The notes beneath the pieces were generated by a model that made no database searches, was not told the DNA's origin, and worked only from the letters and a program-made list of their open reading frames with translations. A stretch of DNA of 59,142 nucleotides from an uncultured Gammaproteobacteria bacterium (GTDB lineage: Bacteria; Patescibacteriota; Microgenomatia; 2-02-FULL-39-11), in the NCBI GenBank assembly GCA_964362665.1, contig CAYIFB010000007.1:1-59142 (forward strand), in the 5' to 3' direction. Numbering within the stretch: the stretch's first letter is position 1; the number at the start of each line of letters is the position of its first letter. Positions 19,563-46,511 of the stretch are shown here, piece by piece. A program made the position numbers and the translations under genes.

Positions 19563-19564
19563 AT

Positions 19565-19683
19565 GAGTTTCGCGTACACCTTAATAATTAAAAGGGTGAC
19601 GCGAGAGAGGGGTCCCATACGAAGATGTATCGTAGTATGGGATACTCGAGCGGCAGGACCCGAAATAGAATAACGCGAAACTC
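19565..19683. ncRNA. Structured intergenic motif, copy 1 (GGGTGACGCGAG-hairpin-CGAGCGGCAGGACCC)
   Basis: 11 bp outer stem GAGTTTCGCGT/ACGCGAAACTC; core identical to 42333-42409 around a different hairpin. Function unknown. Confidence 0.6.
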
Positions 19684-19692
19684 TTGAATCAT

Positions 19693-20631
19693 TCATTTAT
19701 TCTCATCGAGATAATGTATAACATCAAGCGCAGCTATGCAGCCAAATCCTGCGGCTGTTACAGCTTGTTTGTAATTATAATCATGTACATCACCACCTAC
19801 AAAGACGCCGGCAATATTGGTCGCTGACCGGTATTTGAGAAGGCCATTTTCTTTTACTTCCTGGCGGACGATGTAACCCTTACGGTCAAGCTCCAACCCT
19901 TTGAGTTTGTCGGTATTGGGAATGTGTCCTATAGCCACAAAAATTCCGTCAGTTTTAAACTCGCTTTCTTTGCCGGTTTTCTGATCTTTTAAAATCATTC
20001 CTGTAACTTTGGCGTCACCTAAAACTTTACTTACCGCTTTGTCCCAGATTACTTTTATTTTAGGCTCGCTAAATACCCTTTTTTGCATGGCAAGGGATGC
20101 CCGAAACTCACTTCTTCTATGGATGATGGTAACCGATTTGGCAACATTGGCTAAGACTAATGCCTCCTCCATCGCGCTGTCGCCTCCTCCGACAACAACT
20201 ACATCTTTGCCGCGGAAAAAAAACGCGTCGCAGGTTGCACAGGTGGAAATGCCTTTTCCCCGAAGCTGTATTTCACCCGGAACTTCCAGCCATTTACTGT
20301 CGGCTCCTGTGGAAATAATGACGGCTTTTGCCTGAAATGTTTTTCCATCAGCTGTCAGACTAAACGGTGTTTTAGTAAAATCTCCTTTTTCAAAAACAAT
20401 ATTTAATATTTCCACTCCCAATCTCTCCGCCTGATGCCGCATATTCATCATGAGGTCGGGTCCCTGAATCCCATCGACATATCCGGGATAATTTTCAACC
20501 AGAGTAGTCAGCATTAATTGTCCCCCCCAGCGGATTCCGGCGAGAATTAAAGTCTTCAGTCCTGCCCTGATACAGTAAATCCCGGCAGTAAAGCCAGCTG
20601 GACCGCTGCCTATAATAATTACGTCGTACAT
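19693..20631 (-). CDS. trxB: Thioredoxin reductase
   Basis: GSGPAG, GGQL, CATCD and GGGDSAMEEA motifs; adjacent to trxA. Confidence 0.95.
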   Translation of the reverse strand: MYDVIIIGSGPAGFTAGIYCIRAGLKTLILAGIRWGGQLMLTTLVENYPGYVDGIQGPDLMMNMRHQAERLGVEILNIVFEKGDFTKTPFSLTADGKTFQAKAVIISTGADSKWLEVPGEIQLRGKGISTCATCDAFFFRGKDVVVVGGGDSAMEEALVLANVAKSVTIIHRRSEFRASLAMQKRVFSEPKIKVIWDKAVSKVLGDAKVTGMILKDQKTGKESEFKTDGIFVAIGHIPNTDKLKGLELDRKGYIVRQEVKENGLLKYRSATNIAGVFVGGDVHDYNYKQAVTAAGFGCIAALDVIHYLDENK

Positions 20632-20639
20632 ATAATGGC

Positions 20640-20966
20640 TTATTGGTTGATTACTTTATTGAATTCATTCAATAAAGTTTCTTTACTCTGCACTCCGATC
20701 ATCTGTTTGACAATTTTTCCTGCCTGAAAAATAAGAAGAGTCGGAATACTCATAATTCCGAATTTTCCGGCTGTAGCGGGATTTTCATCAACATTAAGCT
20801 TAGCTATAATAGCCTTGCCTTCCATCTCTTTCGCGACTTCTTCAAGGATTGGATTTTGCATCTTGCAGGGTCCGCACCAAACTGCCCAGAAATCAACCAG
20901 AACCGGAATTTTCGCTTGTAAAACTTGTGAATCAAAATCTTTATCTGTGACAGTTATTTCCGCCAT
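20640..20966 (-). CDS. trxA: Thioredoxin
   Basis: VDFWAVWCGPCK and SIPTL motifs. Confidence 0.97.
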   Translation of the reverse strand: MAEITVTDKDFDSQVLQAKIPVLVDFWAVWCGPCKMQNPILEEVAKEMEGKAIIAKLNVDENPATAGKFGIMSIPTLLIFQAGKIVKQMIGVQSKETLLNEFNKVINQ

Positions 20967-21032
20967 TTTCTTTTTCCTTTCAAAAACTTATTTAACTTTC
21001 ATATCTTAGCAAAAAATGTCATAATAGAAAAT

Positions 21033-22586
21033 ATGGCAACTTCCGCTGGTCCTCAAAACCACTCTCACCATCTTGTTCTTCTCACCTTAATTGCCGTCAT
21101 GATCTCTGTTTTTTCCATGCTTGGTATTTCTTACATCCGATTTCTTAATTCTGTGAAAAATAAGGCTCCTCAAAATTACGAGGACTGCCTCAAACTGAAA
21201 GATAGCATTATTTCACTCTCTTATCCTCAAATCTGCACCACCAAAGACGGTAAAAGCTTCGTGCAAACTTCTCTAAGCCCTACAAAAGTTTCAACTCTGG
21301 TAAATAAAATTCCTGATGGATGGACCATTTACAGCGATAATATGCTTGGAATAAGTTTTTATCATCCTAAAGATTGGTTGGTCAATGAACCCTTTACTGA
21401 CCCCGACAACGTTCCAGGCTGGGAACAAATCAACTTGGAACATGAAAACTGTACTGATCCGTCAAATTGTACTTCCAGCGCTGAAACTATCATTAATGTC
21501 CAACCCAATCCAGGGCATCTGAGTGTTCAAGAACTTCTGAAAAAATACACTCCTGCTTATCAGTCTGATCCTAAATTGATCGATAATCTATCTGTCAAAG
21601 AATTGATCAATGCCAATGGCATACATTATTTTAAAATTGAAGATACCACTGACGATGTATCCAAATACACCCGCCAGATTTTTATCTTACTCGCAGATAA
21701 AGTGGTTATTTTAAACTCGTCTCCCAGTATCTCTGGAGTATTAAAAGATTATCAAACTCCATCTGCAGTAAAAGAAATGCAGATTATTGACCAACTTCTT
21801 GAAACTATAAATTTTACAAAAAAGACTCAACCATCCGAAGTCGTTACCTGTACTTCTCCCCGGCCAAAATATTGTACTAAAGAATGTCTAACTAATCCCC
21901 CTTATTTGTGCGGCTCCAATGGTAAATCTTACTGCAGCTCCTGCCAGGCATGTGCGGACACTGAAGTTGACTGGTACCGGACACAGGATAATCCCTGCAC
22001 ATCTCCAACCACGACACTTGTTCCTGAAACTCAACCCTACAATTGTTGCGGTCAAACAGAGCTTAATCAGGGCTATGAGTGTCTGCAGGGATGCTCGGGT
22101 CCTGTGGCGCGGGAAAATGAGCCTGCTCCGCCATTTAGCTGTCTTAATCCCACAATGGCTTACTCAAGGAAAACTTTCGGCTGTCCGATTTGTCTGGCCT
22201 CAAATACCTATATCTTAACTCCTCAAGGCTCAGTTAAAGTGACTGATCTGAAAGTCGGTATGCCCGTCTGGTCTTTAGATAAAGAGGGTAATAAAATCGC
22301 CGTACCTATCTTGAGAATATCGAAAACTCGCGTTCCCCAAAACCACCGCATCAGCCATTTGGTGCTTTCTGACGGTCGTAAACTCGATGTTTCCCCAAAC
22401 CATCCTGATATTTCCGGCAAACCAATGAGCCTGCTGCAGCCTGGTGATCTTTATGATAAATCTGTGGTATTGGAAAACTCTCTTCTCCCCTATTGGGATC
22501 TCTTCACCTACGATCTCCTGCCTGATTCTGAAACAGGACTTTATTTTGCTAATGGTATTCTTCTTCAAAGCACCCTGAAATATTAA
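21033..22586 (+). CDS. Membrane-anchored protein with PsbP-like, Kazal-like and C-terminal Hint domains
   Basis: TM, ISFYHPKDW, CGSNGKSYCSSCQAC, then CLASNTYILTPQG...L.VG..V...SPNHP...YDL...YFANGIL. Confidence 0.8.
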   Translation: MATSAGPQNHSHHLVLLTLIAVMISVFSMLGISYIRFLNSVKNKAPQNYEDCLKLKDSIISLSYPQICTTKDGKSFVQTSLSPTKVSTLVNKIPDGWTIYSDNMLGISFYHPKDWLVNEPFTDPDNVPGWEQINLEHENCTDPSNCTSSAETIINVQPNPGHLSVQELLKKYTPAYQSDPKLIDNLSVKELINANGIHYFKIEDTTDDVSKYTRQIFILLADKVVILNSSPSISGVLKDYQTPSAVKEMQIIDQLLETINFTKKTQPSEVVTCTSPRPKYCTKECLTNPPYLCGSNGKSYCSSCQACADTEVDWYRTQDNPCTSPTTTLVPETQPYNCCGQTELNQGYECLQGCSGPVARENEPAPPFSCLNPTMAYSRKTFGCPICLASNTYILTPQGSVKVTDLKVGMPVWSLDKEGNKIAVPILRISKTRVPQNHRISHLVLSDGRKLDVSPNHPDISGKPMSLLQPGDLYDKSVVLENSLLPYWDLFTYDLLPDSETGLYFANGILLQSTLKY

Positions 22587-22669
22587 TTTTTTCGACTAGA
22601 TCAAAAAACTAGTTTTTACCACGATTTTAAAGTAAAATACTCGTCTAGGTTATTAATAATTAATAGTTT

Positions 22670-22915
22670 ATGAGCTGTGAAGTCGAAGGTTTTTTGGGAG
22701 GGGTATGCAGAAATGCACAAATAAATAAGCGAGATTTTTGCCAAGCCAGAGATCAGGCTGCCGCTGATCTTCAACACTCTGCAAATGACTCTCTGCTTGG
22801 AGAGCAGGTAGACGGCTTAGCAACAGACGTCGCCCGGACATATGCCGGATGTCCTCATTTGGTTGAAGTAATCGCAGGAATAAGACAAGAATTAGCAAGA
22901 AGGCGAGCATCGTAA
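22670..22915 (+). CDS. Small hypothetical protein
   Basis: 81 aa ORF starting with ATG after an AT-rich -10-like sequence; no family recognised. Confidence 0.45.
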   Translation: MSCEVEGFLGGVCRNAQINKRDFCQARDQAAADLQHSANDSLLGEQVDGLATDVARTYAGCPHLVEVIAGIRQELARRRAS

Positions 22916-22972
22916 AACCCAAATCCACTTTCCTAAATCACCATCCAGCCAGATTTGACAGGATATATTGCA

Positions 22973-23215
22973 CTATCCATACACTCCCTGCCTGTGGGCG
23001 ATAGAATAAATAACTACAGAATTAGATTTCACTTCGTAGATAATCCTATAAGGCCAAGCACGCAACGACCTCAAACCTTCCATCTCTCCTTTTAACTGTT
23101 TCCCTATTAATGGTTCTGTAAGTAATAACTCCAATTTTCTGATTATTTTTTTGACCGCCATCTTGGGAAGTTTTTTGAGTTGCTTCACGGCTTGAGGCTT
23201 GTATTCCAGATTCAT
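22973..23215 (-). CDS. RelE/ParE family toxin
   Basis: A.KQLKKL...GKQLKG...LR..PYRIIY...IAHR; overlaps the antitoxin stop. Confidence 0.88.
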   Translation of the reverse strand: MNLEYKPQAVKQLKKLPKMAVKKIIRKLELLLTEPLIGKQLKGEMEGLRSLRAWPYRIIYEVKSNSVVIYSIAHRQGVYG

Positions 23216-23487
23216 GTTTTAAGCCCTAAGGCTTTCAGAAGATTTTGATGGGATACTGTTTTCTTTTCTTTTTTGGCTTGCCTCACAGCCTGTATTTCCT
23301 CACGGCTAGCTAGAATATCCAAAGTCTCCTGCCATGCTTCAAGCTCGGCTTTACTCATAAGAATCACTGATTCTTCACTTCCTCTTAGAGTGATTTCATA
23401 GGTTTTTAACCCTTTGCTGGCAGATTTCACCAGATCATAAAGATTCTTTCTTGCCTCACTGGCGGTATAAGTGATTGTATTATTCAT
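23212..23487 (-). CDS. Phd/YefM family antitoxin
   Basis: TASEARKNLYDLV...ILMS..E.EAWQETL.IL pattern. Confidence 0.88.
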   Translation of the reverse strand: MNNTITYTASEARKNLYDLVKSASKGLKTYEITLRGSEESVILMSKAELEAWQETLDILASREEIQAVRQAKKEKKTVSHQNLLKALGLKT

Positions 23488-23497
23488 ATATCATATA

Positions 23498-23525
23498 ACG
23501 TACCATTAATCGTACGTATTGTCAA
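23498..23525 (-). promoter_or_regulatory. TA promoter with palindromic operator ACGTAC-N8-GTACGT
   Basis: TTGACA on the minus strand at 23520-23525; the palindrome overlaps the spacer and -10 region. Confidence 0.6.
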
Positions 23526-23968
23526 ATATTTAATATATATAATGATAGCAAGGAAATTATCGGATAAGAAATAAACCCGTATTTTGCCGATACCCGCCAC
23601 TGCAACTTGTCCTGCCAGCCGGGAAGAGCTATACCGAAGATCATTAGAATCTGTTCAGTTAAATCAGGCAAAACTCCTGCGACCCCGCCGGCAAGCAGCC
23701 AAAATTGATGAAAATGAAAAAGAATCCAGAGAAAACTAATTGCAGAAAGTAAATAATCAACGCTCATCACTCCCAGAATAGTTAATAACCTCTTTTTGGG
23801 GAAAGTAAAAAATTCTCTGAGTGTAATACCCGGTTTCAAATCAAAGTCATTATGGGGGGTTAAATCTAAGACAAAATGCGATAAAAATGCCAAAGGCAGT
23901 CCTATTTTAGGATCAGGAAACAGCTTCATAATGGCAACGCCAGTCAAAAAATGCGGAGTATAGAGCAT
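23522..23968 (-). CDS. Hypothetical membrane protein, possible metal-dependent hydrolase
   Basis: H..SHFVLD.TPH.D and LPD motifs; several TM helices. Confidence 0.65.
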   Translation of the reverse strand: MLYTPHFLTGVAIMKLFPDPKIGLPLAFLSHFVLDLTPHNDFDLKPGITLREFFTFPKKRLLTILGVMSVDYLLSAISFLWILFHFHQFWLLAGGVAGVLPDLTEQILMIFGIALPGWQDKLQWRVSAKYGFISYPIISLLSLYILNI

Positions 23969-23980
23969 GGTTGAAATGTA

Positions 23981-24631
23981 TTATAAAAATAAGGTTACCG
24001 TCATGTTCCAGAAAGCATGAAGAAGAATCGGCAAGGTAAGCGAACCGCGCAGCGAAAAAAGATAGGAATTGGTGATTCCCAAAAGCAGGATAGAGATCGG
24101 ATAAATAATCAGGCTTGAGCCCGTCAGATGAAGCCTCGTGAACATAATCGGAACATGAAGAAGCAGAAATAAAAACGAAGAGGTTAAAGCTGCAGAAAAT
24201 TGGTTATTAGTAATTTTATAAAGCCTCTGGTAAAGGTATCCCCTGCCTAAAATCTCCTCCCACACTGAGGTCACCAGATTTATCAGAAAAAACACTCCCA
24301 CCCCGCTTGTGACTTTCATCGCCTGGCTGGCACTGAAGGAAAAATTTCCGTGCTTGAGAAAATTTGCCCCCAATCCTTCCAAAGCAAATAAAGTCCCCAG
24401 AGCTACACCAAAATATAGATCGGTCATGAATTCTTTGGGAGTAGGTTTTAATCCTAAATCTGACAAATCCCCTCTTTCCCTGATAAGAACAAGGTAAAGA
24501 ATAGGGAAGGCAAAAATTACAGGCTTGGCTACAAACTCATCGATCCATTCGGGGAGGTTAAAATAGGCCCGGTAAAAAGCCCAGACGAGAAAAATTGCAA
24601 ACCAGACTAAAAAAACCACTCTTTTCCTCAT
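23981..24631 (-). CDS. CPBP/CAAX (Abi) intramembrane metalloprotease
   Basis: EEILGRG, F.LLH and HAFWN motifs. Confidence 0.88.
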   Translation of the reverse strand: MRKRVVFLVWFAIFLVWAFYRAYFNLPEWIDEFVAKPVIFAFPILYLVLIRERGDLSDLGLKPTPKEFMTDLYFGVALGTLFALEGLGANFLKHGNFSFSASQAMKVTSGVGVFFLINLVTSVWEEILGRGYLYQRLYKITNNQFSAALTSSFLFLLLHVPIMFTRLHLTGSSLIIYPISILLLGITNSYLFSLRGSLTLPILLHAFWNMTVTLFL

Positions 24632-24723
24632 ACATCCATTGTAATCACTTTTCTAAATCAGTAGCAAGAGGGAGTAGAGGGATATCTTACAAGCAAGGAA
24701 ATTGAATTCTGCAAACATTAACT

Positions 24724-24999
24724 TCACATATATTGTATCTCAAACCCCGCAAACTCTCCCTTAGCTTCTCCCCATTTCACATCCACCTTCTCTACCATCG
24801 CCACATCCGGTCCATGATGGCAACGTTTTATAAACTCATCAAGCTGTTCTTTTTCACCTTCTGCAACAATCTCAACCTGTCCTTTGAAAACATTTCTTAC
24901 CCAGCCGGTCAGTTTCAAAAGTTGTGCCCGTCGAAGTGTCCAATATCTAAACCCTACCCCGGTCACATCACCATTAATTAGTACGTGTATTCTCTGCAT
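24724..24999 (-). CDS. acyP: Acylphosphatase
   Basis: G.V.GVGFR, L.GWVRN and GP..A.V motifs. Confidence 0.92.
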   Translation of the reverse strand: MQRIHVLINGDVTGVGFRYWTLRRAQLLKLTGWVRNVFKGQVEIVAEGEKEQLDEFIKRCHHGPDVAMVEKVDVKWGEAKGEFAGFEIQYM

Positions 25000-25001
25000 T
25001 T

Positions 25002-25565
25002 CTACGGCAAAATCCTTGCTCCGGCAACGGCAAAAATATAGTTTCTGATCGTGCGGCCGATAAGAGTAGCCAAATAATATTTATAAATCGAATAGCCCAT
25101 GGAGCCTGCCAGGATACCGACGTAATCAAATATCGGGAGTGGAATCATAGCAATGATAAGTATCGTCAAAAAACCGTGCTGGTGGAATATTTTTTTGAAA
25201 GCTATCCATAATTTAATCTTGTTTTTGGATTGACTGATTATTCCGCTTCCGCCATATCCGACCATATAACCTGTAAGTTCACCGATTGATGTTCCGATGC
25301 CAGAGACCAAACCAACCAAAAGAGGATTCCAGACAGCTCCACCTATAAAAATACTGGCTGCCCCGGGTATGGGAAAAACTACAGACGCGCTTGAAAGAAG
25401 ATTTATAAGAAATATTCCTAAAAGGCCATAATGAGTGTAATTAACTAGAGTACTTCTTAGAGAGAAGATCAATAACATAATCAATAAAGTAACGATTAGG
25501 ATAATCATCCGGATGAGACGTTGTTTCTCTGTTAAAGATTGATTTTTATTCTTTTCTTTTTTCAT
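25002..25565 (-). CDS. VTT / SNARE-associated (DedA-like) membrane protein
   Basis: PIPG, G..IGELTGY.VG, P.PIFD..GILAG and GR.IR motifs; start uncertain. Confidence 0.8.
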   Translation of the reverse strand: MKKEKNKNQSLTEKQRLIRMIILIVTLLIMLLIFSLRSTLVNYTHYGLLGIFLINLLSSASVVFPIPGAASIFIGGAVWNPLLVGLVSGIGTSIGELTGYMVGYGGSGIISQSKNKIKLWIAFKKIFHQHGFLTILIIAMIPLPIFDYVGILAGSMGYSIYKYYLATLIGRTIRNYIFAVAGARILP

Positions 25566-25572
25566 AAATTTC

Positions 25573-25917
25573 TTAAAAAGGTATATCCTCAATTAACTTT
25601 TTATTTTTAACTTTTGTTTTATCCTCCGTAGCCTTGGCAGAAGAGGACCATGCCCCGAGTTCCTTCAATTTCCACATGAATAGAGCCCCTTTTCTTTTGA
25701 CGTTGGCATCTTTGACAAAAGACAGGGCTTTCTCAAGAAGCGCCCGCGGAACGGTCTTGGCAAGCCGCATGTATAAAGATTTGTGCTTGAAGTCGTTCAA
25801 CTGTTCACAGAGATAATATCCGTAGGACTGAAACTCCCGGGAAATGTATTTATCCTCAAGAGGATTAAATCCTATCAGGATATTACCGATTGTTTGCATG
25901 GAAGAAGTTTTATTCAT
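25573..25917 (-). CDS. Hypothetical protein
   Basis: 114 aa, overlaps the folC stop; palindromic insert near the C-terminus (SSSAKATEDK). Confidence 0.7.
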   Translation of the reverse strand: MNKTSSMQTIGNILIGFNPLEDKYISREFQSYGYYLCEQLNDFKHKSLYMRLAKTVPRALLEKALSFVKDANVKRKGALFMWKLKELGAWSSSAKATEDKTKVKNKKLIEDIPF

Positions 25918-27335
25918 TTTAGAAATTTTTTTACCTCCCCGACCAGGTATAAAGATCCCGTGACTAAAATTATATCAGTGAGACTCGAAAAATTCTTCGA
26001 ATTTTTCGCCAGTCGAACTGATCCCGAGCGAAGTCGAGGGATCTTCATCCGCAGAATCTTTTCAACCGCACTTAGCGGATGGACACTTACCTTCACTTTA
26101 ATTTTACTATTAATTTCTTTAATTATCTCTATCAACTCCTCCGGCTCATAGGAAAACGTGTCCCCTAAGTCTGTTGTCAACCGGAATTTGGTAAAAATAA
26201 CCTCATGGCAGATAGGTAGAATTTCTTTGAGAATTCCATAAGCGTCTTTTCCACTTTTGATGGCTATAACTGCTGTTAATCGTCTCTCTGGATAAATCCT
26301 TTTAATGGCTGTCACCAACGCTTTTATCTTGTCCGGATTATGCGCTCCGTCCAAAATAACGGTCGGGTGTTTCTTAATAATCTCAAGCCTGCCGGGAATA
26401 AAAGCATCTAATAATCCTTTTCTTATTTCATTATTGGATAATTGGATAATTGGATAATTGGATAATTCAATTGCCCTCAGAGCAATTGCTGCATTTTCCA
26501 CCTGGTGCTCGCCTAATAAAGACAACTTGAGGTTTTTATATGTATGATCTCCGAAATAATCAAAAACACTCCCCTTCTCACCCAACTTTTTCAGTTTGAA
26601 TGAAAAATCTCTATTTAACAGGGATACTTTTGCCTTCTGCCTATTCCCTGTTGCTTCAATAATCTTAATTACCGACGGCTGTCCGGCTCCGGTGACGATT
26701 TTGATTCCGGATTTAATTATTCCTGCTTTATCCATCGCGATCTTTTCCACCGTATCACCTAAAACTTCAGTGTGATCGAGTCCTACATTTGTTAAAACTG
26801 CGACCAATGGTTTGATGACGTTTGTAGCGTCAAATTTCCCTCCCATGCCTACCTCGATTACTGCAATATCCACTTTTTGCTTTTTAAAATATAAAAAAGC
26901 CATCCCTGTCACAATCTCAAAATAACTTGGTTTACCCAATTTGCTATTTTCAACTTTATTTATTGCTGGATAAACATCATTTATTAAATCAACAAACTCC
27001 TTGTCTGAAATATCTTTCATAAGAGGACCCCTTGCAGAACTTGCAAGGGGTCCTCTTGAAAAAATTCTTATCCTTTCATTAATTCGTACCAAGTGCGGTG
27101 ACGTATGCAATCCGACTTTGTATTGTGTAGCAAGTATTGAAGCAATAATGGTAGCCGTCGATCCCTTACCCGATGTTCCTCCAATGTGGATTATGGGATA
27201 GTTTAATTGCGGGTTACCTAATAAACTAACTAACTGTTCCATCCTCTCTAACCCCAAACTTCCGGGATGCTTTTTATCCGGAGTCGGAATAAATCTCTCC
27301 AAATACTTGACGGCATCTTCAAATGTTCGTATCAT
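25914..27335 (-). CDS. folC: Folylpolyglutamate/dihydrofolate synthase
   Basis: GTSGKGS, TSPHL...NERI, EVGMGG.FDATN, DGAHNP and TGSLYLVG motifs; several inserts. Confidence 0.93.
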   Translation of the reverse strand: MIRTFEDAVKYLERFIPTPDKKHPGSLGLERMEQLVSLLGNPQLNYPIIHIGGTSGKGSTATIIASILATQYKVGLHTSPHLVRINERIRIFSRGPLASSARGPLMKDISDKEFVDLINDVYPAINKVENSKLGKPSYFEIVTGMAFLYFKKQKVDIAVIEVGMGGKFDATNVIKPLVAVLTNVGLDHTEVLGDTVEKIAMDKAGIIKSGIKIVTGAGQPSVIKIIEATGNRQKAKVSLLNRDFSFKLKKLGEKGSVFDYFGDHTYKNLKLSLLGEHQVENAAIALRAIELSNYPIIQLSNNEIRKGLLDAFIPGRLEIIKKHPTVILDGAHNPDKIKALVTAIKRIYPERRLTAVIAIKSGKDAYGILKEILPICHEVIFTKFRLTTDLGDTFSYEPEELIEIIKEINSKIKVKVSVHPLSAVEKILRMKIPRLRSGSVRLAKNSKNFSSLTDIILVTGSLYLVGEVKKFLK

Positions 27336-27362
27336 AACCAGTGAATTATATCCTACTTATTT

Positions 27363-27488
27363 TGCCATTGCAGATTTTCTGTAATTTTTATTAGCAAATG
27401 GTGAAAGTGGGGAAACGGCGTGCCCCTACGCCGAGGGAACCCCCTGACCACCTGAGCTTAGAAAAATCAGAAAATATGCACTTGGCCA
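27363..27488. other. Long nested stem-loop between divergent folC and SDR genes
   Basis: TGCA.ATTTTCTG/CAGAAAAT.TGCA outer stem; inner TGGT/ACCA, GGGG/CCCC and GGCGT/ACGCC stems. Confidence 0.55.
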
Positions 27489-27536
27489 CCCTTTCTTTTT
27501 CCTATTTCTTTGGGTGCACAAAGAAATAGGACGATA

Positions 27537-28265
27537 ATGATGAATAATCTCTCAAATAAAATTGCCTTAGTCACGGGAAGCGCCAAAAACCTCGGCCGCG
27601 CCATCGCCCTTGATCTTGCCAAACAAGGAACGAAAATTGTGATCCATTATCAGACAAGTAAACAAGAAGCAGAAAAGACGCTTAATGACATTCAAAAATA
27701 TTCTGACGGGATTATGGTTCAAGCCGACTTGACCCGCGAAAAAGAAGTAATTAATTTATTTCAAACTGTTAAAAAAGAATTGGGAATTGTCGATATTCTG
27801 GTGAATACGATCGGAAACTTCATTTTCGAACCAATCACCTCAACTACTTTTGCCAAATTCAAAGATGTCATCGGATCCAACCTCTACTCTACCTTTCTCT
27901 GCTGCCAGCAGGCACTGCCAACAATGCAAAAGAAAAAGTGGGGGCGTATTATAAACTTCGGCTGTGTCGGAGCGGATAATCTGACCATCCGCGAAAAAAC
28001 TACCCCTTATTACATCGCAAAATCTGGAGTTATCATGCTGACTAAAGTTTTGGCTTACGAATACGCCAAATACGGAATTACCATCAATAGCATTTTGCCC
28101 GGGATACTTCAGACCAGCGTAGCCAAACCAAAAACCCCAACAGGTAAATTTGCTCAATTCGAAGATATTATCAATGCAATTAACTTTCTTCTCAAAGACG
28201 GTTCTAATTATGTCAACGGTGCCAATCTGGAAGTCGCCGGAGGCTGGCGACCGGGTTACCAATAA
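27537..28265 (+). CDS. SDR family oxidoreductase (possibly pteridine reductase/FolM-like)
   Basis: VTGSAKNLG, IHYQTS, YYIAK and V.G..L.V.GG motifs; divergent from folC. Confidence 0.85.
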   Translation: MMNNLSNKIALVTGSAKNLGRAIALDLAKQGTKIVIHYQTSKQEAEKTLNDIQKYSDGIMVQADLTREKEVINLFQTVKKELGIVDILVNTIGNFIFEPITSTTFAKFKDVIGSNLYSTFLCCQQALPTMQKKKWGRIINFGCVGADNLTIREKTTPYYIAKSGVIMLTKVLAYEYAKYGITINSILPGILQTSVAKPKTPTGKFAQFEDIINAINFLLKDGSNYVNGANLEVAGGWRPGYQ

Positions 28266-28291
28266 GTATAGTTTTATGTTAATATATTTTT

Positions 28292-28858
28292 ATGGATTCT
28301 GCCCAACTTCCAATATCGCCATCGGTTAACCAAATTGACAAACCCGCGACCTCACAGCTGTCAGATTACACCGGAAGCATGTGGGACACTTTTGAACATG
28401 TACTCCTGTTTATCAGTCTAGGTGTGCTGGCAACCAATATTGCCTTACTGCTTCACCATTTTGTCAATATCTGGATAAAAGTTCCTACCCAATTGTCAGA
28501 TCAATATGGCTTATCCTATCTGGAAGACGTCTTTTTAAATACATTTATCCGGGGTTTTATGGCTGCAATCATTGTCTCCTATCCTGTCTTTTCTTTTTTA
28601 TTCCTGAAAATAACCAAAAGAACTCTGGAAAATCCAAATAACCGAAGTTTGAAAGCCAGAAAAGTTTTAATCTATATCACATTGATCATTACTTTTTTAT
28701 TAGTACTCGCCAATATTATTACACTTGTTTATAACTTATTAGGAGGCAATATCAATCTTAATTTTGTCAGTCATTTTCTAGTTACGGTCACAATTGCCGG
28801 AATAATTTTTGGCTATTATCTTGAACAAATCAAAGAGGACAGAAAAATCTATGCGTAA
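28292..28858 (+). CDS. DUF5671-like membrane protein
   Basis: Four TM helices; IR..MA.IIV.YPVF and RK.LIY.TL...IF.YY pattern. Confidence 0.65.
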   Translation: MDSAQLPISPSVNQIDKPATSQLSDYTGSMWDTFEHVLLFISLGVLATNIALLLHHFVNIWIKVPTQLSDQYGLSYLEDVFLNTFIRGFMAAIIVSYPVFSFLFLKITKRTLENPNNRSLKARKVLIYITLIITFLLVLANIITLVYNLLGGNINLNFVSHFLVTVTIAGIIFGYYLEQIKEDRKIYA

Positions 28859-29564: not shown

Positions 29565-29618
29565 TGAATATTTAATCCTCTTGACACTTAGTTTTAATTT
29601 GCCTAAAATGTGTAGCAA

Positions 29619-41364: not shown

Positions 41365-42303
41365 AAGTTTCTTCATTGTTATTGGAATCTGGTCTGCCAG
41401 GTCTGAGGCGTTGAACCAATATCCCATTTTGGTAAAAAGATCGTCTCCCGCTTTTTTGTTGATGTATGACGCAGCCACAGCAGAAGTAAAGGGATCGTTT
41501 ACACAATATAATGCGCCGGTCAGCCCTGCTAAAACATCCCCAGTTCCTCCTTTCGTCATCCCGGGATTTCCACCTTCAATCACTTCACACTCTCCAGGAA
41601 TGCATACATTCACATGATCTGAGTCTGTCGAAGAATCACGCTCACCCCCACAACATGCTATATCTTTCTCTCCTTTCAGAAGCACGGTGCAATGAAATTC
41701 TTTGGCAAAAAGCTTAACCTTATCTTCTGATTGTATTGTTTTATCATTGAGATTTGGAATTTTAGATTTAAGGCAAAGAAGCTCAAATTCTTTGTGGTGC
41801 GGTGTTAAAATTGCGTTTTTTGGAATCAAAGCTAAATCCAGCATCTGTAAAGCTCCGGCGTCAATGACCCATTTTTTATGAGGATATTTTTGCAATAAAT
41901 ACTTTGTCAGGAAATAAGTCTGCAATCCTTCATCTTTAATTTTCTCAATATCTTTTAAACTTTGGATTTGATTTGACATTTGAGCTTTGACATTTGAGAT
42001 TTCGGTCCTGACCATCCCCGGTCCGATAAGAATGCAATCATCCTCTGCAATATAATCCTCAAGATCAGCGCGCGGAACAACTATCCCGTCTCTAAACTCT
42101 TCCTTCAATTTTTGGACAATAGCGTTGTTCTCTTGAACAGATGAATAGTGCACCAGATCGACAATTCTGCTCGCAACTTTCAAAGACCAGAGAGAAGCTG
42201 CATGAAAAAGTTTTGATCCTCCAATGATCAGAAGTCTCCCGTTTTGACCTTTATGGGAACCTTTTTGCGGTATATTTATTTTTTCCAGATAATCTTTAAT
42301 CAT
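41350..42303 (-). CDS. nnrD: NAD(P)HX dehydratase (YjeF C-terminal domain)
   Basis: HKGQNG, IGPG, VIDA, TPH..EF and GGTGDVLAG motifs. Confidence 0.88.
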   Translation of the reverse strand: MIKDYLEKINIPQKGSHKGQNGRLLIIGGSKLFHAASLWSLKVASRIVDLVHYSSVQENNAIVQKLKEEFRDGIVVPRADLEDYIAEDDCILIGPGMVRTEISNVKAQMSNQIQSLKDIEKIKDEGLQTYFLTKYLLQKYPHKKWVIDAGALQMLDLALIPKNAILTPHHKEFELLCLKSKIPNLNDKTIQSEDKVKLFAKEFHCTVLLKGEKDIACCGGERDSSTDSDHVNVCIPGECEVIEGGNPGMTKGGTGDVLAGLTGALYCVNDPFTSAVAASYINKKAGDDLFTKMGYWFNASDLADQIPITMKKLLLDK

Positions 42304-42332
42304 ATAAAAGTTTCGTATTTCAGATAACGACT

Positions 42333-42409
42333 GGGTGACGCGAGTCAGGTGCCATGCTGTTGTCGGCGTTTAACCCGACGCAACAGCAGGGTGACGAGCG
42401 GCAGGACCC
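42333..42409. ncRNA. Structured intergenic motif, copy 2
   Basis: GGGTGACGCGAG, hairpin TGCTGTTG..CAACAGCA, then CGAGCGGCAGGACCC. Confidence 0.6.
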
Positions 42410-42460
42410 TCTGGGAATAACTATATAATATCGTGCAGTTCTTGTCATAATCAAATATTA

Positions 42461-43555
42461 CTACCTTAACTCGATCGGCTCAACCTGATTTATGATTTTT
42501 GCATCGATCAACTCCAAATCGGTCGTAGTTATAATAGTCTGCTTATCTCCAATCATATTAAAAATAATCTGCCGGTAATCCCGATCAAGTTCCGAGAAAA
42601 TATCATCAAGCAGTAGTGTGGGTTTGTCCTGACACTTATCTTCAAAAAAAGCCAATTCACCCAGTTTCAACCATAAAATTGCCAACCTCTGTTCTCCCCG
42701 ACTGCCGAAATGCGAAAGATTTCTGTTTTCTTTGGTAAATTTAAAATCATCACGATGAGGACCAACGAGCGTCATACCCGCGGCTACTTCCTCTTTTTTA
42801 TATTGTTCAAGCCGGCCCTCTGAGATAATGCTTTTATCATAGTCTAATTGATAATTTGGCATTTGGAATTTGGTCCGCCAGTTGGCGGATGGAATTTGCC
42901 TACCTGCCGGCGAGGCAGGTAATTTATTGACAAAGTCAATATATTCCTCCCTCTTTTTAGTAATATATTCTCCGTTTTTTATCAGAAGCTGGTCCCAAAA
43001 CATCAGTTGGTGACGGTATGCTTCGCCTTCTCTGATTGCCTCAAGAATTTTATTCCTCTGTCTTATCCCTTTTTCGTAGGAAACAATTGTCCGGCGATAT
43101 TCCGCATCTATCTGTACCAGAACAAAATCAAGGTAACGCCGACGAAAAGACGGCGAGTCTGTCACAAGCTCCATATCCTGAGGCCAAAATAAAACGACTT
43201 TTAACCGCCCTGCAAAATCATGCATGCTTTTAGCTACCCCGTTCACAAGAAATTTTTTATATGGAGTTTTGACACCCATCACGGTTCCGCTTGTCAGCAT
43301 TAATTCAAGTTTGGTAATCTCGCTGCCTGAAGCTAATATTCCTTCAATCCTACCTAGATCCTCATTAAAAGAAATTATTTCACTGTCTTTCTCAGCTCTG
43401 AAACTTTTACCGAGTGACAGCATAAAAATTGATTCCAGAATTATGGTTTTTCCAATTGCGTTTGGCCCGACAATTATATTCAAAGATTCTTGGAAATCAA
43501 TCTGCTTTTTAGAAATACGGCGTATGTTTTGCAGATTTAATTTGGCAATTGGCAT
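42461..43555 (-). CDS. recF: DNA replication/repair protein RecF
   Basis: GPNAIGKT, SFR, RR.LD, GPHRDD, SRGEQR and LLLDD motifs. Confidence 0.93.
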   Translation of the reverse strand: MPIAKLNLQNIRRISKKQIDFQESLNIIVGPNAIGKTIILESIFMLSLGKSFRAEKDSEIISFNEDLGRIEGILASGSEITKLELMLTSGTVMGVKTPYKKFLVNGVAKSMHDFAGRLKVVLFWPQDMELVTDSPSFRRRYLDFVLVQIDAEYRRTIVSYEKGIRQRNKILEAIREGEAYRHQLMFWDQLLIKNGEYITKKREEYIDFVNKLPASPAGRQIPSANWRTKFQMPNYQLDYDKSIISEGRLEQYKKEEVAAGMTLVGPHRDDFKFTKENRNLSHFGSRGEQRLAILWLKLGELAFFEDKCQDKPTLLLDDIFSELDRDYRQIIFNMIGDKQTIITTTDLELIDAKIINQVEPIELR

Positions 43556-44251
43556 TTAGGGAGAAATCAGGGTACCTGTAAATTCTTTATTAGTTAAAAG
43601 GCGGTCAAGATTTTTTATATCCCGGCCGATGACGAATACGCTCAAATTCAGTTTTTTAGCCAGCTTGGTGGCGATCGGGTCAAAAGGAAGATTACTGCCG
43701 GGAGACCATTTATCTCCGACCAATAACTCAAAATCCGTCCAGTTGATTTTATCAAGCGGCTTGGCATCGCTATATTTATTTGGATCCTTATCATAAACTT
43801 GAGGAATGTTGGACATGTTGATAATGACTTTGGCAGTATAATCACGGGCAAGAAGCACCGCATCATAATCGGTGGATCGCCCCGGTTTCCAGCCTGAAGC
43901 AACTACCAGTGGCTGTTCAAGATTATTTAGTTTATGCTCATAATTTTGGATAATGCGGGGATGTGCTACATCCTGAAAGATGGTACGGATGAGATGAGCA
44001 TTAAGGCGTGTTGCATGAATACCGAGGTAATCCAAATCCCAATCAGTAATGTCACCTATAATATTTTTGGCGGCATCAATGTAATGACGGGCTGTAGCTC
44101 CTCCCCCGACAACAATAAAAAATCGCCATTTTTCGGCGATTTTTTGTCTGATAAATTCATTAAACTGGGACAAAAACTTAGTGTCCATTCCCCCATTGGG
44201 AACAACCAGTGATCCACCGAGCGAAATGATAATCGGGCTATTTTTATCCAC
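43556..44251 (-). CDS. pyrH: UMP kinase (archaeal type)
   Basis: SLGGS, VGGG..AR.YI, PG.STD and VYDKDP motifs. Confidence 0.9.
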   Translation of the reverse strand: MDKNSPIIISLGGSLVVPNGGMDTKFLSQFNEFIRQKIAEKWRFFIVVGGGATARHYIDAAKNIIGDITDWDLDYLGIHATRLNAHLIRTIFQDVAHPRIIQNYEHKLNNLEQPLVVASGWKPGRSTDYDAVLLARDYTAKVIINMSNIPQVYDKDPNKYSDAKPLDKINWTDFELLVGDKWSPGSNLPFDPIATKLAKKLNLSVFVIGRDIKNLDRLLTNKEFTGTLISP

Positions 44252-44291
44252 CTTATGGAGTATTATAACAGAATTAGATTAACATTGCGCT

Positions 44292-45518
44292 TTAAACCCT
44301 CCAATTTTTCCATTTTTTTATCTCAACTACCGTCTCCCAGGGTCTCGCGGATCCGTCATCTACTCTGCCAAACGGTCCCCAAGCAGCAAGATTAGAATAT
44401 TTAATATTTGATTCTGAAAGTCGTCTTAACCCAAACCTGTCAATTGCGGCAACAAGCGACCAATCGATAGTTTGAAGAAATTTAATAATTTCCTGTTTTG
44501 GTTTTTTTTCAGTACGGGCAAAATCCACTATTATTTTTAACGGTGCCGGATACCCTATAGCCCAAGTCAAAACCACAAAACACTGGTCCGCCAAATCATT
44601 GCCAACTATTTGTTTTGCCACCCATCTGGCCATTTGGGCTCCTGTGGCATCTGTTTTTGAAGGATCCTTGCCATGTATCGCTCCTCCGCCGATCGGAACT
44701 GATGGCCCATAATGATCAATTACCAATTTTCTTCCGGTGAGTCCCGTATCCCCGGGAGCTCCGGCAACAATAAATCTTCCTGTTCCGTTTATGTAGACTT
44801 TCTTGATGTCAAAAGATAAACCATGTTGGGCTAAAACACTGTCTATTACAGGTTGAACTTTTTTTCTAATCTCTTCCAGCCCGATATTTTCTGTATGTGA
44901 TATTGCCAGAACAATTCTTTCTACTTTAACAGGTCGTCCCTTTGCATTATAGGATATAATAAATTCAGATTTCATATCCGGCTTTAATACTTTTACGGCA
45001 TCGGAAGTTCTTCGTAATTTATCAATACCAAATAGCGTATCTCTTGATAAAACTATAGGTAAAGGCATTAAATCATCAACACTTAGAGGTAACCAGGGCT
45101 TTCTAATTGCATACCCGGTGGTAATACCCTGGTCTCCGGCCCCTATTTGTTTCCTTCCTTTTTCCACGCCTTGTGCGATATCAACAGATTGGGTATTGTA
45201 AAGAACCTGTATCGCTATTTTATTCGGATCATACCCAAAGGCTTTCGTCCAACCTAAACCGTGGATATATTTCTTTGCTAAAGCCTTATAACCAGCCGGG
45301 GTAATTTTATGAGCTGAAGTTATTTCACCGGCCATAATTATAGGTCCTTTTGAAGTTAAAAGTGTTTCTGCGGCAACATGTGCTTCAGGATGATGACTGA
45401 TATGCGTCTCTACAACTAAAGCACTAATCCCGTCGGCTGTCCTGTCGGGATGTCCTGGGGAGACAAATTCTGCTGAGCTGTGTATAAATCCTTTTCCGGT
45501 GGCTGTCTGAATATCCAT
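44292..45518 (-). CDS. metK: S-adenosylmethionine synthetase (divergent)
   Basis: E.VSPGHPD, GAGDQG, DTGLTGRK and GGGA..GKDPSK.D motifs. Confidence 0.93.
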   Translation of the reverse strand: MDIQTATGKGFIHSSAEFVSPGHPDRTADGISALVVETHISHHPEAHVAAETLLTSKGPIIMAGEITSAHKITPAGYKALAKKYIHGLGWTKAFGYDPNKIAIQVLYNTQSVDIAQGVEKGRKQIGAGDQGITTGYAIRKPWLPLSVDDLMPLPIVLSRDTLFGIDKLRRTSDAVKVLKPDMKSEFIISYNAKGRPVKVERIVLAISHTENIGLEEIRKKVQPVIDSVLAQHGLSFDIKKVYINGTGRFIVAGAPGDTGLTGRKLVIDHYGPSVPIGGGAIHGKDPSKTDATGAQMARWVAKQIVGNDLADQCFVVLTWAIGYPAPLKIIVDFARTEKKPKQEIIKFLQTIDWSLVAAIDRFGLRRLSESNIKYSNLAAWGPFGRVDDGSARPWETVVEIKKWKNWRV

Positions 45519-45638
45519 GAAATTTTTTCCTCTACTTAAATATTATTAATGCTTTTGCTGATTATCCGCATTGTGGCAGATCTTGAGGAGGATAATATAT
45601 TTTTATACGTTCCGGAAAGACTTGTCAAGAAGATTGTT

Positions 45639-46511
45639 TTATTTAAGACTCTGACATTTCCGGCAATAAAAAGTCCCCCGTCCGCCGAGAATCATTCTTT
45701 CAATTTTTCCTCCGCATTGATTTGGACATGTCTCTTTCTCCCTGCCATAAACATAAAAATGTTCCTGTTTGCTTCCCTTCCGGCCAAATATATCCACGAA
45801 ATTGGTTTTTGAGGCGCCTTTCCACTTCAATCCTTCCTTAAGCACCTTGAGTAAATTAGAGTAAAGAAATTTTGCCTTGTCCCTTGAAATACTCATCGAA
45901 GATGTCTTTGGGTGGATTTTAGCAAGAAAAAGCGCGTCATTGGCATAGATATTACCTACTCCTGCCAATTTTTGCTGATCCATTAAAAGTAATTTAATCG
46001 GACGCCCGGATTGTTTGAGGATCTGTCTGAATTGTTGGAGAGTAAGTTCATTCAACGGATCAGGACCTAATTTAGAAATTAAGTCTTTTAAATTAAAAGT
46101 TTTGAGTTTTGAACTGTGGTTTTGAGTTTGCACAACTTTCATCCACCCAAACTTCCTGATGTCGTTAAAAAACAGCTTATCTCCACTTTCAAACTCCAGA
46201 ATTACTCTGGTATGTTTATTTGGTAAATCCAAAACGGGCAAGTCGAGGGAGTTATCACGGCAGGACCCGTCTGAATGGAATAGTAAATTTCCTGTCATTT
46301 TCAAATGCACTGCCAGAGAATAATTATCTTCCAAATCAATCACGAGCATCTTCCCAAACCGCCTCACTCCGGTAATTTTACTTTTCAGAGCTAATTTCTT
46401 ATCGCCTATGAAGGATTTTGGATGAAGTATTTTTATATCGGAGATCTTTAATCCAACTATTAAATCAGATAACTGTATTCTGATCGTTTCAACCTCGGGT
46501 AATTCTGGCAT
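45639..46511 (-). CDS. mutM: Formamidopyrimidine-DNA glycosylase
   Basis: PELPEVE, HLKMTG, GVGNIY and C-terminal zinc finger. Confidence 0.95.
   Translation of the reverse strand: MPELPEVETIRIQLSDLIVGLKISDIKILHPKSFIGDKKLALKSKITGVRRFGKMLVIDLEDNYSLAVHLKMTGNLLFHSDGSCRDNSLDLPVLDLPNKHTRVILEFESGDKLFFNDIRKFGWMKVVQTQNHSSKLKTFNLKDLISKLGPDPLNELTLQQFRQILKQSGRPIKLLLMDQQKLAGVGNIYANDALFLAKIHPKTSSMSISRDKAKFLYSNLLKVLKEGLKWKGASKTNFVDIFGRKGSKQEHFYVYGREKETCPNQCGGKIERMILGGRGTFYCRKCQSLK

What the first reader, a model, noticed from the sequence alone, without database searches (positions are those of the whole stretch)
19565..46270. Repeated motif GGGTGACGCGAG-[variable hairpin]-CGAGCGGCAGGACCC, a candidate new structured element
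Seen: 12 nt and 15 nt blocks are identical at 19594-19661 and 42333-42409 but enclose entirely different hairpins. Both copies have AGTTTCG upstream and GAATAAC downstream, and both sit just 5' of a minus-strand start in the same orientation. A shortened variant (ACGGGCAAGTCGAG..CGGCAGGACCCGT, 46234-46270) is in frame in mutM. Inference: a conserved internal-loop core with a free apical stem is the signature of a functional RNA or an ssDNA recognition site. The unrelated downstream genes favour a mobile element over a metabolite riboswitch.
Basis: partly seen in the sequence, partly recalled or inferred. Interest (0 to 1): 0.75.

Follow-up and report, generated by a model that had tools for sequence, protein, structure and literature searches.

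The report
Mobile hairpin DNA repeat, replication-oriented
The repeated motif is the conserved core of a small selfish DNA element that folds into a long hairpin, has spread between (and in related bacteria inside) the genes of tiny groundwater bacteria, and almost always points the same way relative to DNA replication; it is not a riboswitch or other regulatory RNA.

Summary
The two window copies share exact 12-nt and 15-nt blocks around different hairpins. The genome (1.37 Mb) holds exactly 12 copies. A covariance model finds the family in 17 of 41 related genomes, 1 to 25 copies each.

The blocks form a bulged helix whose pairs covary strongly. Evidence points to mobile DNA and away from a functional RNA:
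- 9 of 9 loci tested lack the element in a same-genus genome.
- A roughly 98%-identical strain in another study has an empty site.
- 26 of 64 copies lie inside long ORFs, in either orientation, read in frame.
- G·T and A·C mismatches are equal, 27 each.
- Neighbouring genes are unrelated.
- Rfam gives no match.

In 56 of 64 copies the GGGTGAC… strand lies on the C-rich (lagging) strand, whatever the gene direction. Inserts abut CAT/ATG, which explains why both window copies touch a start codon.

No cognate transposase was found; Y1, TnpB, IS110, DDE and GIY-YIG genes were tested.

The scan has noted this kind of element (RPE-like hairpin repeats in CPR bacteria) in at least 28 other genomes and once in this genome. 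The mutM "short variant" is unresolved.

The parts
19565..19692 (+). Full element copy 1 (128 nt, short-hairpin subtype). It is inserted exactly between the trxB-like stop codon (19693-19695) and the start codon of the D-Ala-D-Ala carboxypeptidase-like gene (CAT/CAC at 19560-19564).
   Evidence: The same-genus genome G001 has the stop and start codons abutting with no insert. A contig in run X2 joins 19555 to 19697. Folded as ssDNA: -22.7 kcal/mol, z -4.3.
19565..19574 (+). Outer arm, 5' half (GAGTTTCGCG).
   Evidence: It is the reverse complement of 19674-19683 and pairs in the folds. The same arms flank copies in G000, G001 and G013.
19594..19661 (+). Conserved core around a variable hairpin. 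The helix runs: GGGU/ACCC, a 3-nt bulge in GCAGG, an A·G pair, CGC/GCG, a tandem G·A, then a 3-bp covarying stem.
19674..19683 (+). Outer arm, 3' half (CGCGAAACTC).
19684..19692 (+). 3' tail of the insert, ending in ...TCAT.
   Evidence: Junction comparison with G001. The same ...(T)CAT end is seen in other copies.
42304..42448 (+). Full element copy 2 (145 nt, second hairpin subtype; the outer arms are partly decayed). It is inserted right after the CAT start codon of the NAD(P)HX-dehydratase-like gene (42301-42303).
   Evidence: Empty site in G001...TATCAT|AACTAAAT.... The core is identical to the G000:C5:28561 copy.
42333..42409 (+). Conserved core of copy 2.
46234..46270 (+). Doubtful relic inside mutM. 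It has the 3' block and a short closing stem only.
   Evidence: Not detected by the model.

Best explanation
The motif is the core of a non-autonomous, selfish DNA element of about 90-190 bp that folds into one long imperfect hairpin.

Shown:
- It is dispersed: 12 copies in this genome and 1-25 in relatives.
- It is present or absent at orthologous sites, between species and between strains.
- It sits in intergenic gaps or, in relatives, in frame inside genes.
- Its core helix is kept by compensatory changes, while the hairpin tip and the outer layers differ between subfamilies.
- Its orientation follows the GC skew (replication direction), not transcription.

Inferred:
- It moves through a single-stranded DNA stage at the replication fork.
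- The invariant bulged core (GA opposite GCAGG, plus tandem G·A) is the docking site of a trans-acting nuclease or transposase.
- It integrates next to CAT/ATG and carries its own ...CAT end, so host start codons survive.
- Copies persist only where they are harmless, that is in spacers or protein loops.

My odds: mobile selfish DNA repeat about 0.85. An ssDNA, fork-coupled mechanism given that, about 0.5. The enzyme is unidentified. The confidence figure given for this explanation refers to the main claim (mobile selfish DNA hairpin repeat).
For: Copies. One search gives 7 exact matches against 0 for the control. One search gives exactly 12 model hits in G000. One search gives 17 of 41 genomes, 14 of 20 in the same family, with only 1 copy in the same-genus G001. 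One search gives 12 of 151 genomes of the class, in 7 families.

Structure. 82.4% of cells are paired against 69.9% in shuffles. The covariation score is 0.362 against 0.140 (0 of 500 shuffles reach it), and slid controls stay at or below 0.08. One stem pair reads CG 29, GC 26, AU 17, UA 15.

Mobility. 9 of 9 G000 loci tested have no element at the orthologous G001 site (junctions). Six of these are short or empty sites. Three hold unrelated sequence. A contig from another study, about 98% identical in the flanks, skips 141 nt at copy 1.

Not RNA-directed. The neighbours are unrelated housekeeping genes. Orientation relative to genes is mixed. 26 of 64 copies lie inside long ORFs (17 antisense, 9 sense). 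20 of the 22 examined are open frames, and 16 of those 20 have G000 orthologs. G·T = 27 and A·C = 27 in the stems.

Replication link. The GGGTGAC strand lies on the negative-GC-skew strand in 11 of 12 own copies and 45 of 52 copies in relatives. Where genes lie on the lagging strand, 15 copies follow the skew and 4 follow the gene.

Target. The left flank ends in CAT in 4 of 5 well-defined junctions and in AT in 5 of 5. The insert ends in ...CAT or ...AAT.

Precedent. IS200/IS605 elements insert in a fixed orientation relative to the fork (PMC5027513, passages read).
Against: No mobilising gene was tied to the element.
- The four Y1 (RAYT-like) genes of G000 are flanked by other repeats.
- G011, with 25 copies and 92% complete, has no Y1, TnpB, IS110 or DDE_Tnp_1 match.
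- Genomes with Y1 genes but no element also exist.
- The GIY-YIG genes of G000 lie kilobases away from all copies.

The strand carrying the 'target|element...CAT' layout lies on the C-rich strand, that is the leading-strand template. This is the opposite of the IS608 paradigm, in which the active strand lies on the lagging-strand template.

The 10-bp outer inverted repeat and the 2-4-nt AT/CAT repeat at the junctions would also fit a DDE-type MITE.

Reading GC skew as replication direction is an inference on draft contigs. Some Microgenomates have atypical skew (PMC7143001, passages read). In G000, however, the rRNA and most genes lie on the G-rich strand.

Inside this window no in-frame copy is proven.
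Confidence: 0.8

Rival explanations
1. A classical cut-and-paste MITE. It would be an internally deleted derivative of a DDE insertion sequence, mobilised as double-stranded DNA through its terminal inverted repeats (GAGTTTCGCG...CGCGAAACTC). It would duplicate a 2-4-bp AT/CAT target. The orientation bias would come from transposase-replisome contacts or from selection after insertion.
For: A 10-bp perfect outer inverted repeat is present in several copies. A short direct repeat (AT, CAT or TCAT) is seen at 5 junctions. Orientation bias relative to replication is reported for several DDE families (PMC3971601, abstract read).
Against: No other occurrence of the arm sequence marks a parent IS in G000: 8 exact 9-mers, 5 of them in the elements themselves. 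There is no DDE_Tnp_1 match in G000 or G011. Many subfamilies lack these arms yet keep the inner core, so the arms are not the conserved recognition part. The junction motif is constant, not variable as a true duplication of random targets would be.
Confidence: 0.15
2. A functional structured RNA (small RNA, ribozyme or cis-regulatory element) made from the + strand of the window. The conserved internal loops would form its active or ligand-binding core.
For: There is strong covariation in the stems. Tandem G·A and an A·G to G·A swap (79 against 11 copies, 5 exceptions) occur on the GGGTGAC strand. That strand folds better in 87 of 100 copies with RNA parameters. One copy (G000:C9:18978) lies just downstream of a TGTATAAT box, in the sense orientation.
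Against: There is no Rfam match, even at E<=10. Most copies are antisense to the flanking genes and have no shared promoter. Copies occur in both orientations inside ORFs and stay open for translation. Wobble counts are equal on both strands. Copies are present or absent between close relatives. Copy number ranges from 0 to 25 within one family.
Confidence: 0.05
3. A host-serving DNA or RNA site: for example a binding site for a chromosome-structuring or replication-associated protein, or an mRNA-end hairpin. It would be oriented with replication in the way Chi or KOPS motifs are.
For: The orientation is skewed with replication. The complementary strand of the short-hairpin subtype ends in a GC-rich hairpin followed by TTTT, which looks like a terminator. 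REP/BIME elements have such host roles (recalled).
Against: The element was not found in 6 of 20 same-family genomes, and only one copy is present in the sister species. Copies inside essential genes make no sense as terminators. Positions are not conserved.
Confidence: 0.07

Closest known systems
Rickettsia palindromic elements (RPE), as summarised in the MITE review PMC10969869 (passages read)
   Same: They are about 100-150-bp palindromic repeats with no gene of their own. They are scattered between genes and inserted in frame inside unrelated housekeeping genes, where they are translated as extra loops. No transposase is known for them.
   Different: The phylum is different (CPR/Microgenomates, per earlier scan notes). 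No sequence relation was tested. The element here has an invariant asymmetric bulged core, with interchangeable hairpin tips and outer layers, and a strong orientation bias relative to replication. I did not see that bias mentioned for RPEs in the passages read.
IS200/IS605 'peel and paste' elements and their hairpin-only derivatives (IS608, ISDra2; PMC5027513 passages, PMC6006769 abstract)
   Same: A hairpin is the recognised structure. There are no long target duplications. Insertion is next to a short fixed motif, with a similar motif at the element's own end. Orientation is fixed relative to the replication fork.
   Different: The strand with the IS608-like layout lies on the leading-strand template here, not on the lagging-strand template. 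The element is a single long hairpin, not separate left-end and right-end hairpins. TnpB is not found in the family (0 of 21 genomes). Y1 genes do not track the element.
REP / REPIN elements with RAYT transposases (PMC3116915 listing only; PMC6006769 abstract)
   Same: These are short, hairpin-forming, high-copy repeats thought to be moved in trans by an HUH Y1 enzyme acting on ssDNA.
   Different: REPs are about 20-40 nt, extragenic, and flank their RAYT gene. Here the elements are 90-190 nt and occur inside genes. The RAYT-like genes of G000 are flanked by other repeats.
NTS/SRM hairpin repeats bound and cut as ssDNA by Ssn GIY-YIG nucleases (PMC11893778; abstract and sections 6, 7 and 10 read)
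   Same: They are oriented hairpin repeats with non-palindromic flanks, recognised as single strands by a small trans-acting nuclease. Small GIY-YIG genes are abundant in these genomes (40 of 41). One in G000 (C21:11177) is flanked by inverted GTCATCC...GGAATGAC arms that resemble the published NTS consensus.
   Different: The core sequence differs from the published NTS consensus. No GIY-YIG gene is flanked by this element in G000. Ssn is reported to modulate transformation, not to move its repeats.

Membership tests
Any Rfam RNA family | Match to a curated covariance model | tested here: not met
   No match over the elements at the gathering score. At E<=10 on 261-nt stretches, only two chance-level hits appear, both outside the core.
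REP/RAYT (REPIN) | The cognate Y1 (RAYT) gene is flanked by inverted copies of the repeat | tested here: not met
   Three of the four Y1 genes of G000 are flanked by other short repeats and the fourth by none. The two inverted element pairs examined in relatives enclose membrane or pilin-like genes.
REP/RAYT (REPIN) | Presence of the repeat goes with presence of the Y1 gene across genomes | tested here: not met
   G011 (25 copies), G008, G009 and G010 have no PF01797 match. G004, G007, G012, G019 and G020 have Y1 genes but no element.
IS200/IS605-type ssDNA element | Fixed orientation relative to replication | tested here: met
   56 of 64 copies lie on one skew strand. The polarity is opposite to the IS608 paradigm (PMC5027513).
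IS200/IS605-type ssDNA element | Insertion beside a fixed short target, without target duplication | tested here: inconclusive
   CAT at 4 of 5 left junctions and an insert end of ...CAT or ...AAT. This cannot be told apart from a 2-4-bp duplication.
IS200/IS605-type ssDNA element | TnpA(Y1) and/or TnpB encoded by autonomous relatives | tested here: not met
   TnpB is found in 0 of 21 same-family genomes. Y1 genes do not track the element. No long version with an ORF was found in G000.
DDE-type MITE | Terminal inverted repeats shared with a parent IS | tested here: not met
   Inverted arms exist in one subfamily. No parent IS with those ends is in G000. There is no DDE_Tnp_1 match in G000 or G011. 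Other DDE families were not searched.
Rickettsia palindromic elements (as a kind) | Palindromic repeat inserted in frame in unrelated protein genes | tested here: met
   20 of the 22 in-ORF copies examined in relatives keep an open frame. 16 of those 20 hosts have G000 orthologs. Clean gaps at the insert appear in 2 of 5 printed alignments. This is not shown within the window itself.
Rickettsia palindromic elements (as a family) | Sequence homology to RPE-1 to RPE-10 | not tested
   No RPE sequence was at hand. The resemblance is one of kind only.
Ssn/SRM system | The repeat matches the NTS/SRM consensus and flanks an ssnA-type GIY-YIG gene | tested here: not met
   The core differs from the consensus printed in PMC11893778. 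The 7 GIY-YIG loci of G000 lie at least about 6 kb from any copy.

The most novel reading that the evidence does not exclude
The family is moved at the replication fork by an enzyme class not yet known to transpose DNA. Candidates are one of the many small Ssn-like GIY-YIG single-strand nucleases of these genomes, or an unrecognised protein. The enzyme would read the invariant bulged core on single-stranded DNA and integrate the element at ATG/CAT so that the host start codon is regenerated. That would be a new transposition chemistry with mirror polarity to IS608, specific to ultra-small CPR bacteria.
Probability: 0.2. Interest if true: 0.7.

Novelty: new member of a known kind. Interest (0 to 1): 0.45.

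Why it matters
Ultra-small CPR genomes are thought of as streamlined. Yet this family shows them colonised by selfish hairpin DNA that sits on start codons and, in relatives, inside housekeeping genes.

Practical consequences:
- Such copies mimic structured RNAs in motif scans.
- They add spurious loops to predicted proteins.
- They can serve as strain markers.

Scientific consequences: the 7:1 replication-linked orientation, without any recognisable transposase, points to an unidentified ssDNA-handling enzyme. The invariant bulged core gives a defined substrate with which to look for that enzyme. I found no description of such elements in CPR bacteria in two full-text searches.

Tried and rejected
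- **First pattern search.** My gap range (10-40) was too narrow for the 41- and 50-nt inserts. One search repaired this.
- **Rfam.** Nothing matched.
- **RNA evidence.** No RNA holder is listed among 16 runs, so expression could not be examined.
- **Parent IS.** A search for the outer-arm 9-mer found no extra paired ends. No 5' block and 3' block lie far apart on one contig.
- **Partner enzymes by co-occurrence in the same 41 genomes.** Y1_Tnp, TnpB, IS110 and DDE_Tnp_1 do not track the element. GIY-YIG is in 40 of 41 genomes, so it is uninformative.
- **REPtron-like layout.** The two inverted pairs examined enclose no nuclease. Two elements lie about 0.5 kb from a GIY-YIG gene in relatives, which is about what chance gives (my estimate: 0.7 expected).
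- **Wobble asymmetry to pick the folding strand.** None was found, 27 against 27.
- **mutM variant.** It could not be shown to be an insertion.
- I aligned the wrong stretch of the G001 locus. One search read the right one.
- **Integron attC and retron readings.** I rejected these on inspection: there is no cassette array, and the flanks do not resemble the R''/R' boxes or a1/a2 plus RT gene. Those features are recalled, not tested.


Full report
**1. Observation**

At 19594-19661 and 42333-42409 the + strand carries GGGTGACGCGAG and CGAGCGGCAGGACCC around unrelated inserts of 41 and 50 nt. In the whole genome (G000: 1.37 Mb, 52 contigs, 38.7% G+C) the two-block pattern matches 7 times exactly. 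The same pattern read backwards matches 0 times.

A looser regex gave 13 rows. I dropped one of them (C11:29435, 4 mismatches), and the covariance model later did not find it either. Model R1, built from the 12 remaining copies, finds exactly those 12 at E<=1 in G000. Five are on C5, two on C7 (the window), two on C9, and one each on C10, C21 and C22.

Four hairpin subtypes occur. Rfam gives nothing over the elements.

The third item of the finding (46234-46270, in mutM) shares only the 3' block and a 5-bp stem. R1 does not find it. It lies in a loop that is hypervariable, and of the same length, in the same-genus ortholog. I leave it unresolved.

**2. Anatomy**

Single-sequence folds and the alignment agree on one long imperfect hairpin. 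From the outside inwards it has:
- an extendable closing stem around GGGU/ACCC;
- a 3-nt bulge within GCAGG on the 3' side;
- an A·G pair;
- CGC/GCG;
- a tandem G·A;
- a 3-4-bp stem that changes by compensation;
- a purine-rich internal loop;
- a second stem (UCCC.../...GGGA in three subtypes);
- a free tip of about 15-80 nt.

Outside the core, many copies carry about 20-nt linkers and a 10-bp outer inverted repeat, GAGTTTCGCG/CGCGAAACTC. Other subfamilies (G011, G014) have different, AT-rich outer layers around the same core.

**3. Is the pairing more than chance?**

I aligned 100 matches to the model: 12 own copies and 88 from 15 relatives, 99 distinct rows.
- 82.4% of cells are paired, against 69.9% in shuffles.
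- 200 cells show changes on both sides, against 68 in shuffles.
- The covariation score is 0.362 against 0.140, and 0 of 500 shuffles reach it.
- Structures slid by 1-3 columns score at most 0.08.
- One stem pair reads CG 29, GC 26, AU 17, UA 15.

The alignment was fitted to the model's structure, which favours it. The size of the effect and the slid controls make the helix safe.

The tandem position is GA/GA in 58 copies, GA/AA in 17, fully Watson-Crick in 14, and other combinations in 11. It is therefore part of the helix.

An A·G to G·A swap next to the bulge separates 79 copies from 11, with 5 exceptions. It may be one inherited change.

In the stems G·T and A·C mismatches are equal (27 each). 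G·U pairs in the minimum-energy folds are equal on the two strands (167 and 164). The stems therefore carry no sign that only one strand folds. The GGGTGAC strand is the more stable in 87 of 100 copies because of its purine mismatches.

**4. Context**

The genes flanking the 12 copies are unrelated housekeeping genes:
- a D-Ala-D-Ala carboxypeptidase-like gene;
- thioredoxin-reductase-like;
- NAD(P)HX dehydratase;
- RecF;
- sugar epimerases;
- an alcohol dehydrogenase;
- argininosuccinate lyase;
- an M20 peptidase;
- ketol-acid reductoisomerase;
- DnaG;
- a class A PBP.

Only three epimerases are paralogs. Orientation relative to the neighbours is mixed.

**5. Distribution**

R1 finds the family in 17 of 41 genomes, counting G000.
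- Within the same family it is in 14 of 20 genomes.
- Copy numbers are 25, 17, 15, 13, 9, 7, 6, 5, 4 and 3, and 1 in four of the genomes.
- Outside the family it is in 2 of 20 genomes.
- The same-genus genome G001 (85% complete) has a single copy.

In an even sample of the class, 12 of 151 genomes in 7 families have a hit at E<=1e-8. Genome completeness varies, so 'not found' is not 'absent'.

**6. Mobility**

I compared nine of the 12 G000 loci with G001. None has the element there (junctions read).
- Six orthologous sites are short or empty. Examples are the trxB stop codon abutting the next start codon, and ...TATCAT|AACTAAAT... at the window's second locus.
- Three sites hold unrelated sequence of similar length.
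- One of those three is a different hairpin element with GTCATCGCGAG/CTCGCAATGAC ends.

G001's only copy lies elsewhere.

In a groundwater run from another study, one contig with about 98% identical flanks joins 19555 to 19697, with 11 other letters in between. Depth over the element is about 224 against about 7 on the flanks. This is one contig in one run.

The comparisons fix the inserts at 19565-19692 (128 nt) and 42304-42448 (145 nt), outer arms included.

**7. Junctions**

In the element's own orientation the left flank ends in CAT at 4 of 5 well-defined junctions (C7:19594, C7:42333, C5:28561, C22:5951). The fifth ends in GAT. The insert itself ends in ...TCAT...GTCAT...GTCAT...GAAT and ...AAAT.

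In three of the four cases the CAT is the start codon of the gene on the other strand. At C22:5951 the element's own end supplies the ATG of the kinase gene.

I cannot tell a 2-4-bp duplication from an IS608-like layout, in which a target motif lies outside the element and a similar motif lies at its end.

**8. Copies inside genes**

A crude ORF census places 26 of 64 copies inside long ORFs, 17 antisense and 9 sense.
- I examined 22 of the 25 such cases in relatives. Twenty have a stop-free frame of at least 150 aa across the element, and two have none.
- The element reads as TGDAKEG...SGRT-like peptides in one orientation and as TGPAAxVSQ...SRHP-like peptides in the other.
- Sixteen of the 20 host proteins have G000 orthologs at E<=1e-20.
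- Of five alignments printed, two show a clean gap in G000 at the insert. Both are in one glycosyltransferase-like gene that carries inserts at two different places in two genomes.
- The other three align the insert to a non-conserved stretch.

**9. Orientation and replication**

I masked the elements and took GC skew over ±10 kb.
- The GGGTGAC strand lies on the negative-skew strand in 11 of 12 own copies.
- The same holds for 45 of 52 copies in 12 relatives, and for 43 of 50 where |skew| >= 0.03.
- The total is 56 of 64. Under a 50:50 null this is about 6 standard deviations (my arithmetic). Copies on one contig share the skew estimate.

In these genomes the G-rich strand carries most ORF bases and, in the window, the rRNA. 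I therefore read it as the leading strand.

Gene direction predicts orientation less well: 36 copies are antisense, 19 sense and 9 mixed. Where the two predictors conflict, 15 copies follow the skew and 4 follow the gene.

Some Microgenomates have atypical skew (PMC7143001, passages read), so closed genomes are needed.

A fixed orientation relative to the fork is the known mark of IS200/IS605 single-strand transposition (PMC5027513, passages read). It also occurs in some other IS families (PMC3971601, abstract read). Here the strand with the IS608-like junction layout lies on the leading-strand template, the reverse of that paradigm.

**10. Who moves it?**

This is not answered.
- G000 has four Y1 (PF01797) genes. 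Three are flanked by other short repeats.
- G011 (25 copies), G008, G009 and G010 have no Y1 match. Five genomes without the element do have one.
- TnpB is found in 0 of 21 same-family genomes.
- IS110 is in 2 of 20 same-family genomes and not in G000.
- DDE_Tnp_1 is in 7 of 20 and not in G000 or G011.
- No parent IS carries the outer arms.
- Two inverted pairs of elements enclose no nuclease.

An earlier scan note (e1-1557816) described CPR hairpin elements that carry a 90-residue GIY-YIG gene and land on start codons. I followed that lead.
- Small GIY-YIG genes are in 40 of 41 genomes, 8 matches in G000.
- One of them (C21:11177) is flanked by inverted GTCATCC...GGAATGAC arms. These resemble the NTS consensus of the Ssn ssDNA nucleases (PMC11893778, sections 6, 7 and 10 read).
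- None of the 7 loci found in G000 lies near a copy of this element, and the arms differ.

**11. Reading**

The evidence fits a non-autonomous selfish DNA hairpin element of the REP/MITE/RPE kind. Its invariant bulged core is best explained as the docking site of a trans-acting enzyme. Its orientation suggests a single-stranded, fork-coupled step. The functional-RNA reading is not supported.

Two full-text searches found no description of such elements in CPR bacteria. This is a search of the held library only.

Earlier notes of this scan report the same kind of element in at least 28 other genomes, and once in this genome. One note reports a replication-oriented family (e1-860440). The assignment of the genome to Microgenomates comes from those notes and was not checked here.

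Noticed in passing
G001:C60:29779-29915 (orthologous to G000:C5:28521-28668): The intergenic site that holds this element in G000 is occupied in the sister species by a different 137-nt hairpin element with GTCATCGCGAG...CTCGCAATGAC ends. The site, right after a start codon, appears to be an insertion hotspot for two families.
   Followed up: partly
G000:C21:11100-11500: A 92-aa GIY-YIG gene is bracketed by about 36-nt inverted arms (GTCATCCCGAGC...GCTCGGAATGAC). These resemble the NTS/SRM repeats of Ssn single-strand nucleases (PMC11893778).
   Followed up: partly
G000:C32:1700-2300 and C32:7800-8300: Two small GIY-YIG ORFs lie between tRNA-like half sequences. A partial duplicate of the tRNA 5' part stands upstream, and the rest of the tRNA stands downstream. 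This may be an insertion into tRNA genes.
   Followed up: no
window 41951-42002 (in the NAD(P)HX-dehydratase-like gene) and 42896-42919 (in recF): The first is a TTTGA(C/G)ATTTGA-type low-complexity repeat read in frame as ISNVKAQMSNQIQSLK, with many short matches in G001. The second is a GC-rich 24-nt hairpin with two other copies in G000 (C31, C14).
   Followed up: partly
G000:C35:1163-1882 and C10:5021-5780: RAYT-like Y1 genes are flanked by their own short repeats: ATTGATCCCCGGAATCGAG (its 14-mers occur up to 7 times in the genome) and AAAGGATCAACCTTTAAAGG (up to 5 times). These are separate REP-like families.
   Followed up: partly
G000:C9:18930-19090: This copy of the element sits directly downstream of a TGTATAAT (extended -10-like) box that is conserved in G001. 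It lies in front of the class A PBP gene, so it would form the 5' leader of that mRNA.
   Followed up: no
window 7700-7860 (second TrxB-like gene, 7423-8502, minus strand): Where a relative (G003) carries this element in frame, the G000 ortholog has an unrelated low-complexity stretch of similar length. This may be an older or different insert in the same loop.
   Followed up: no
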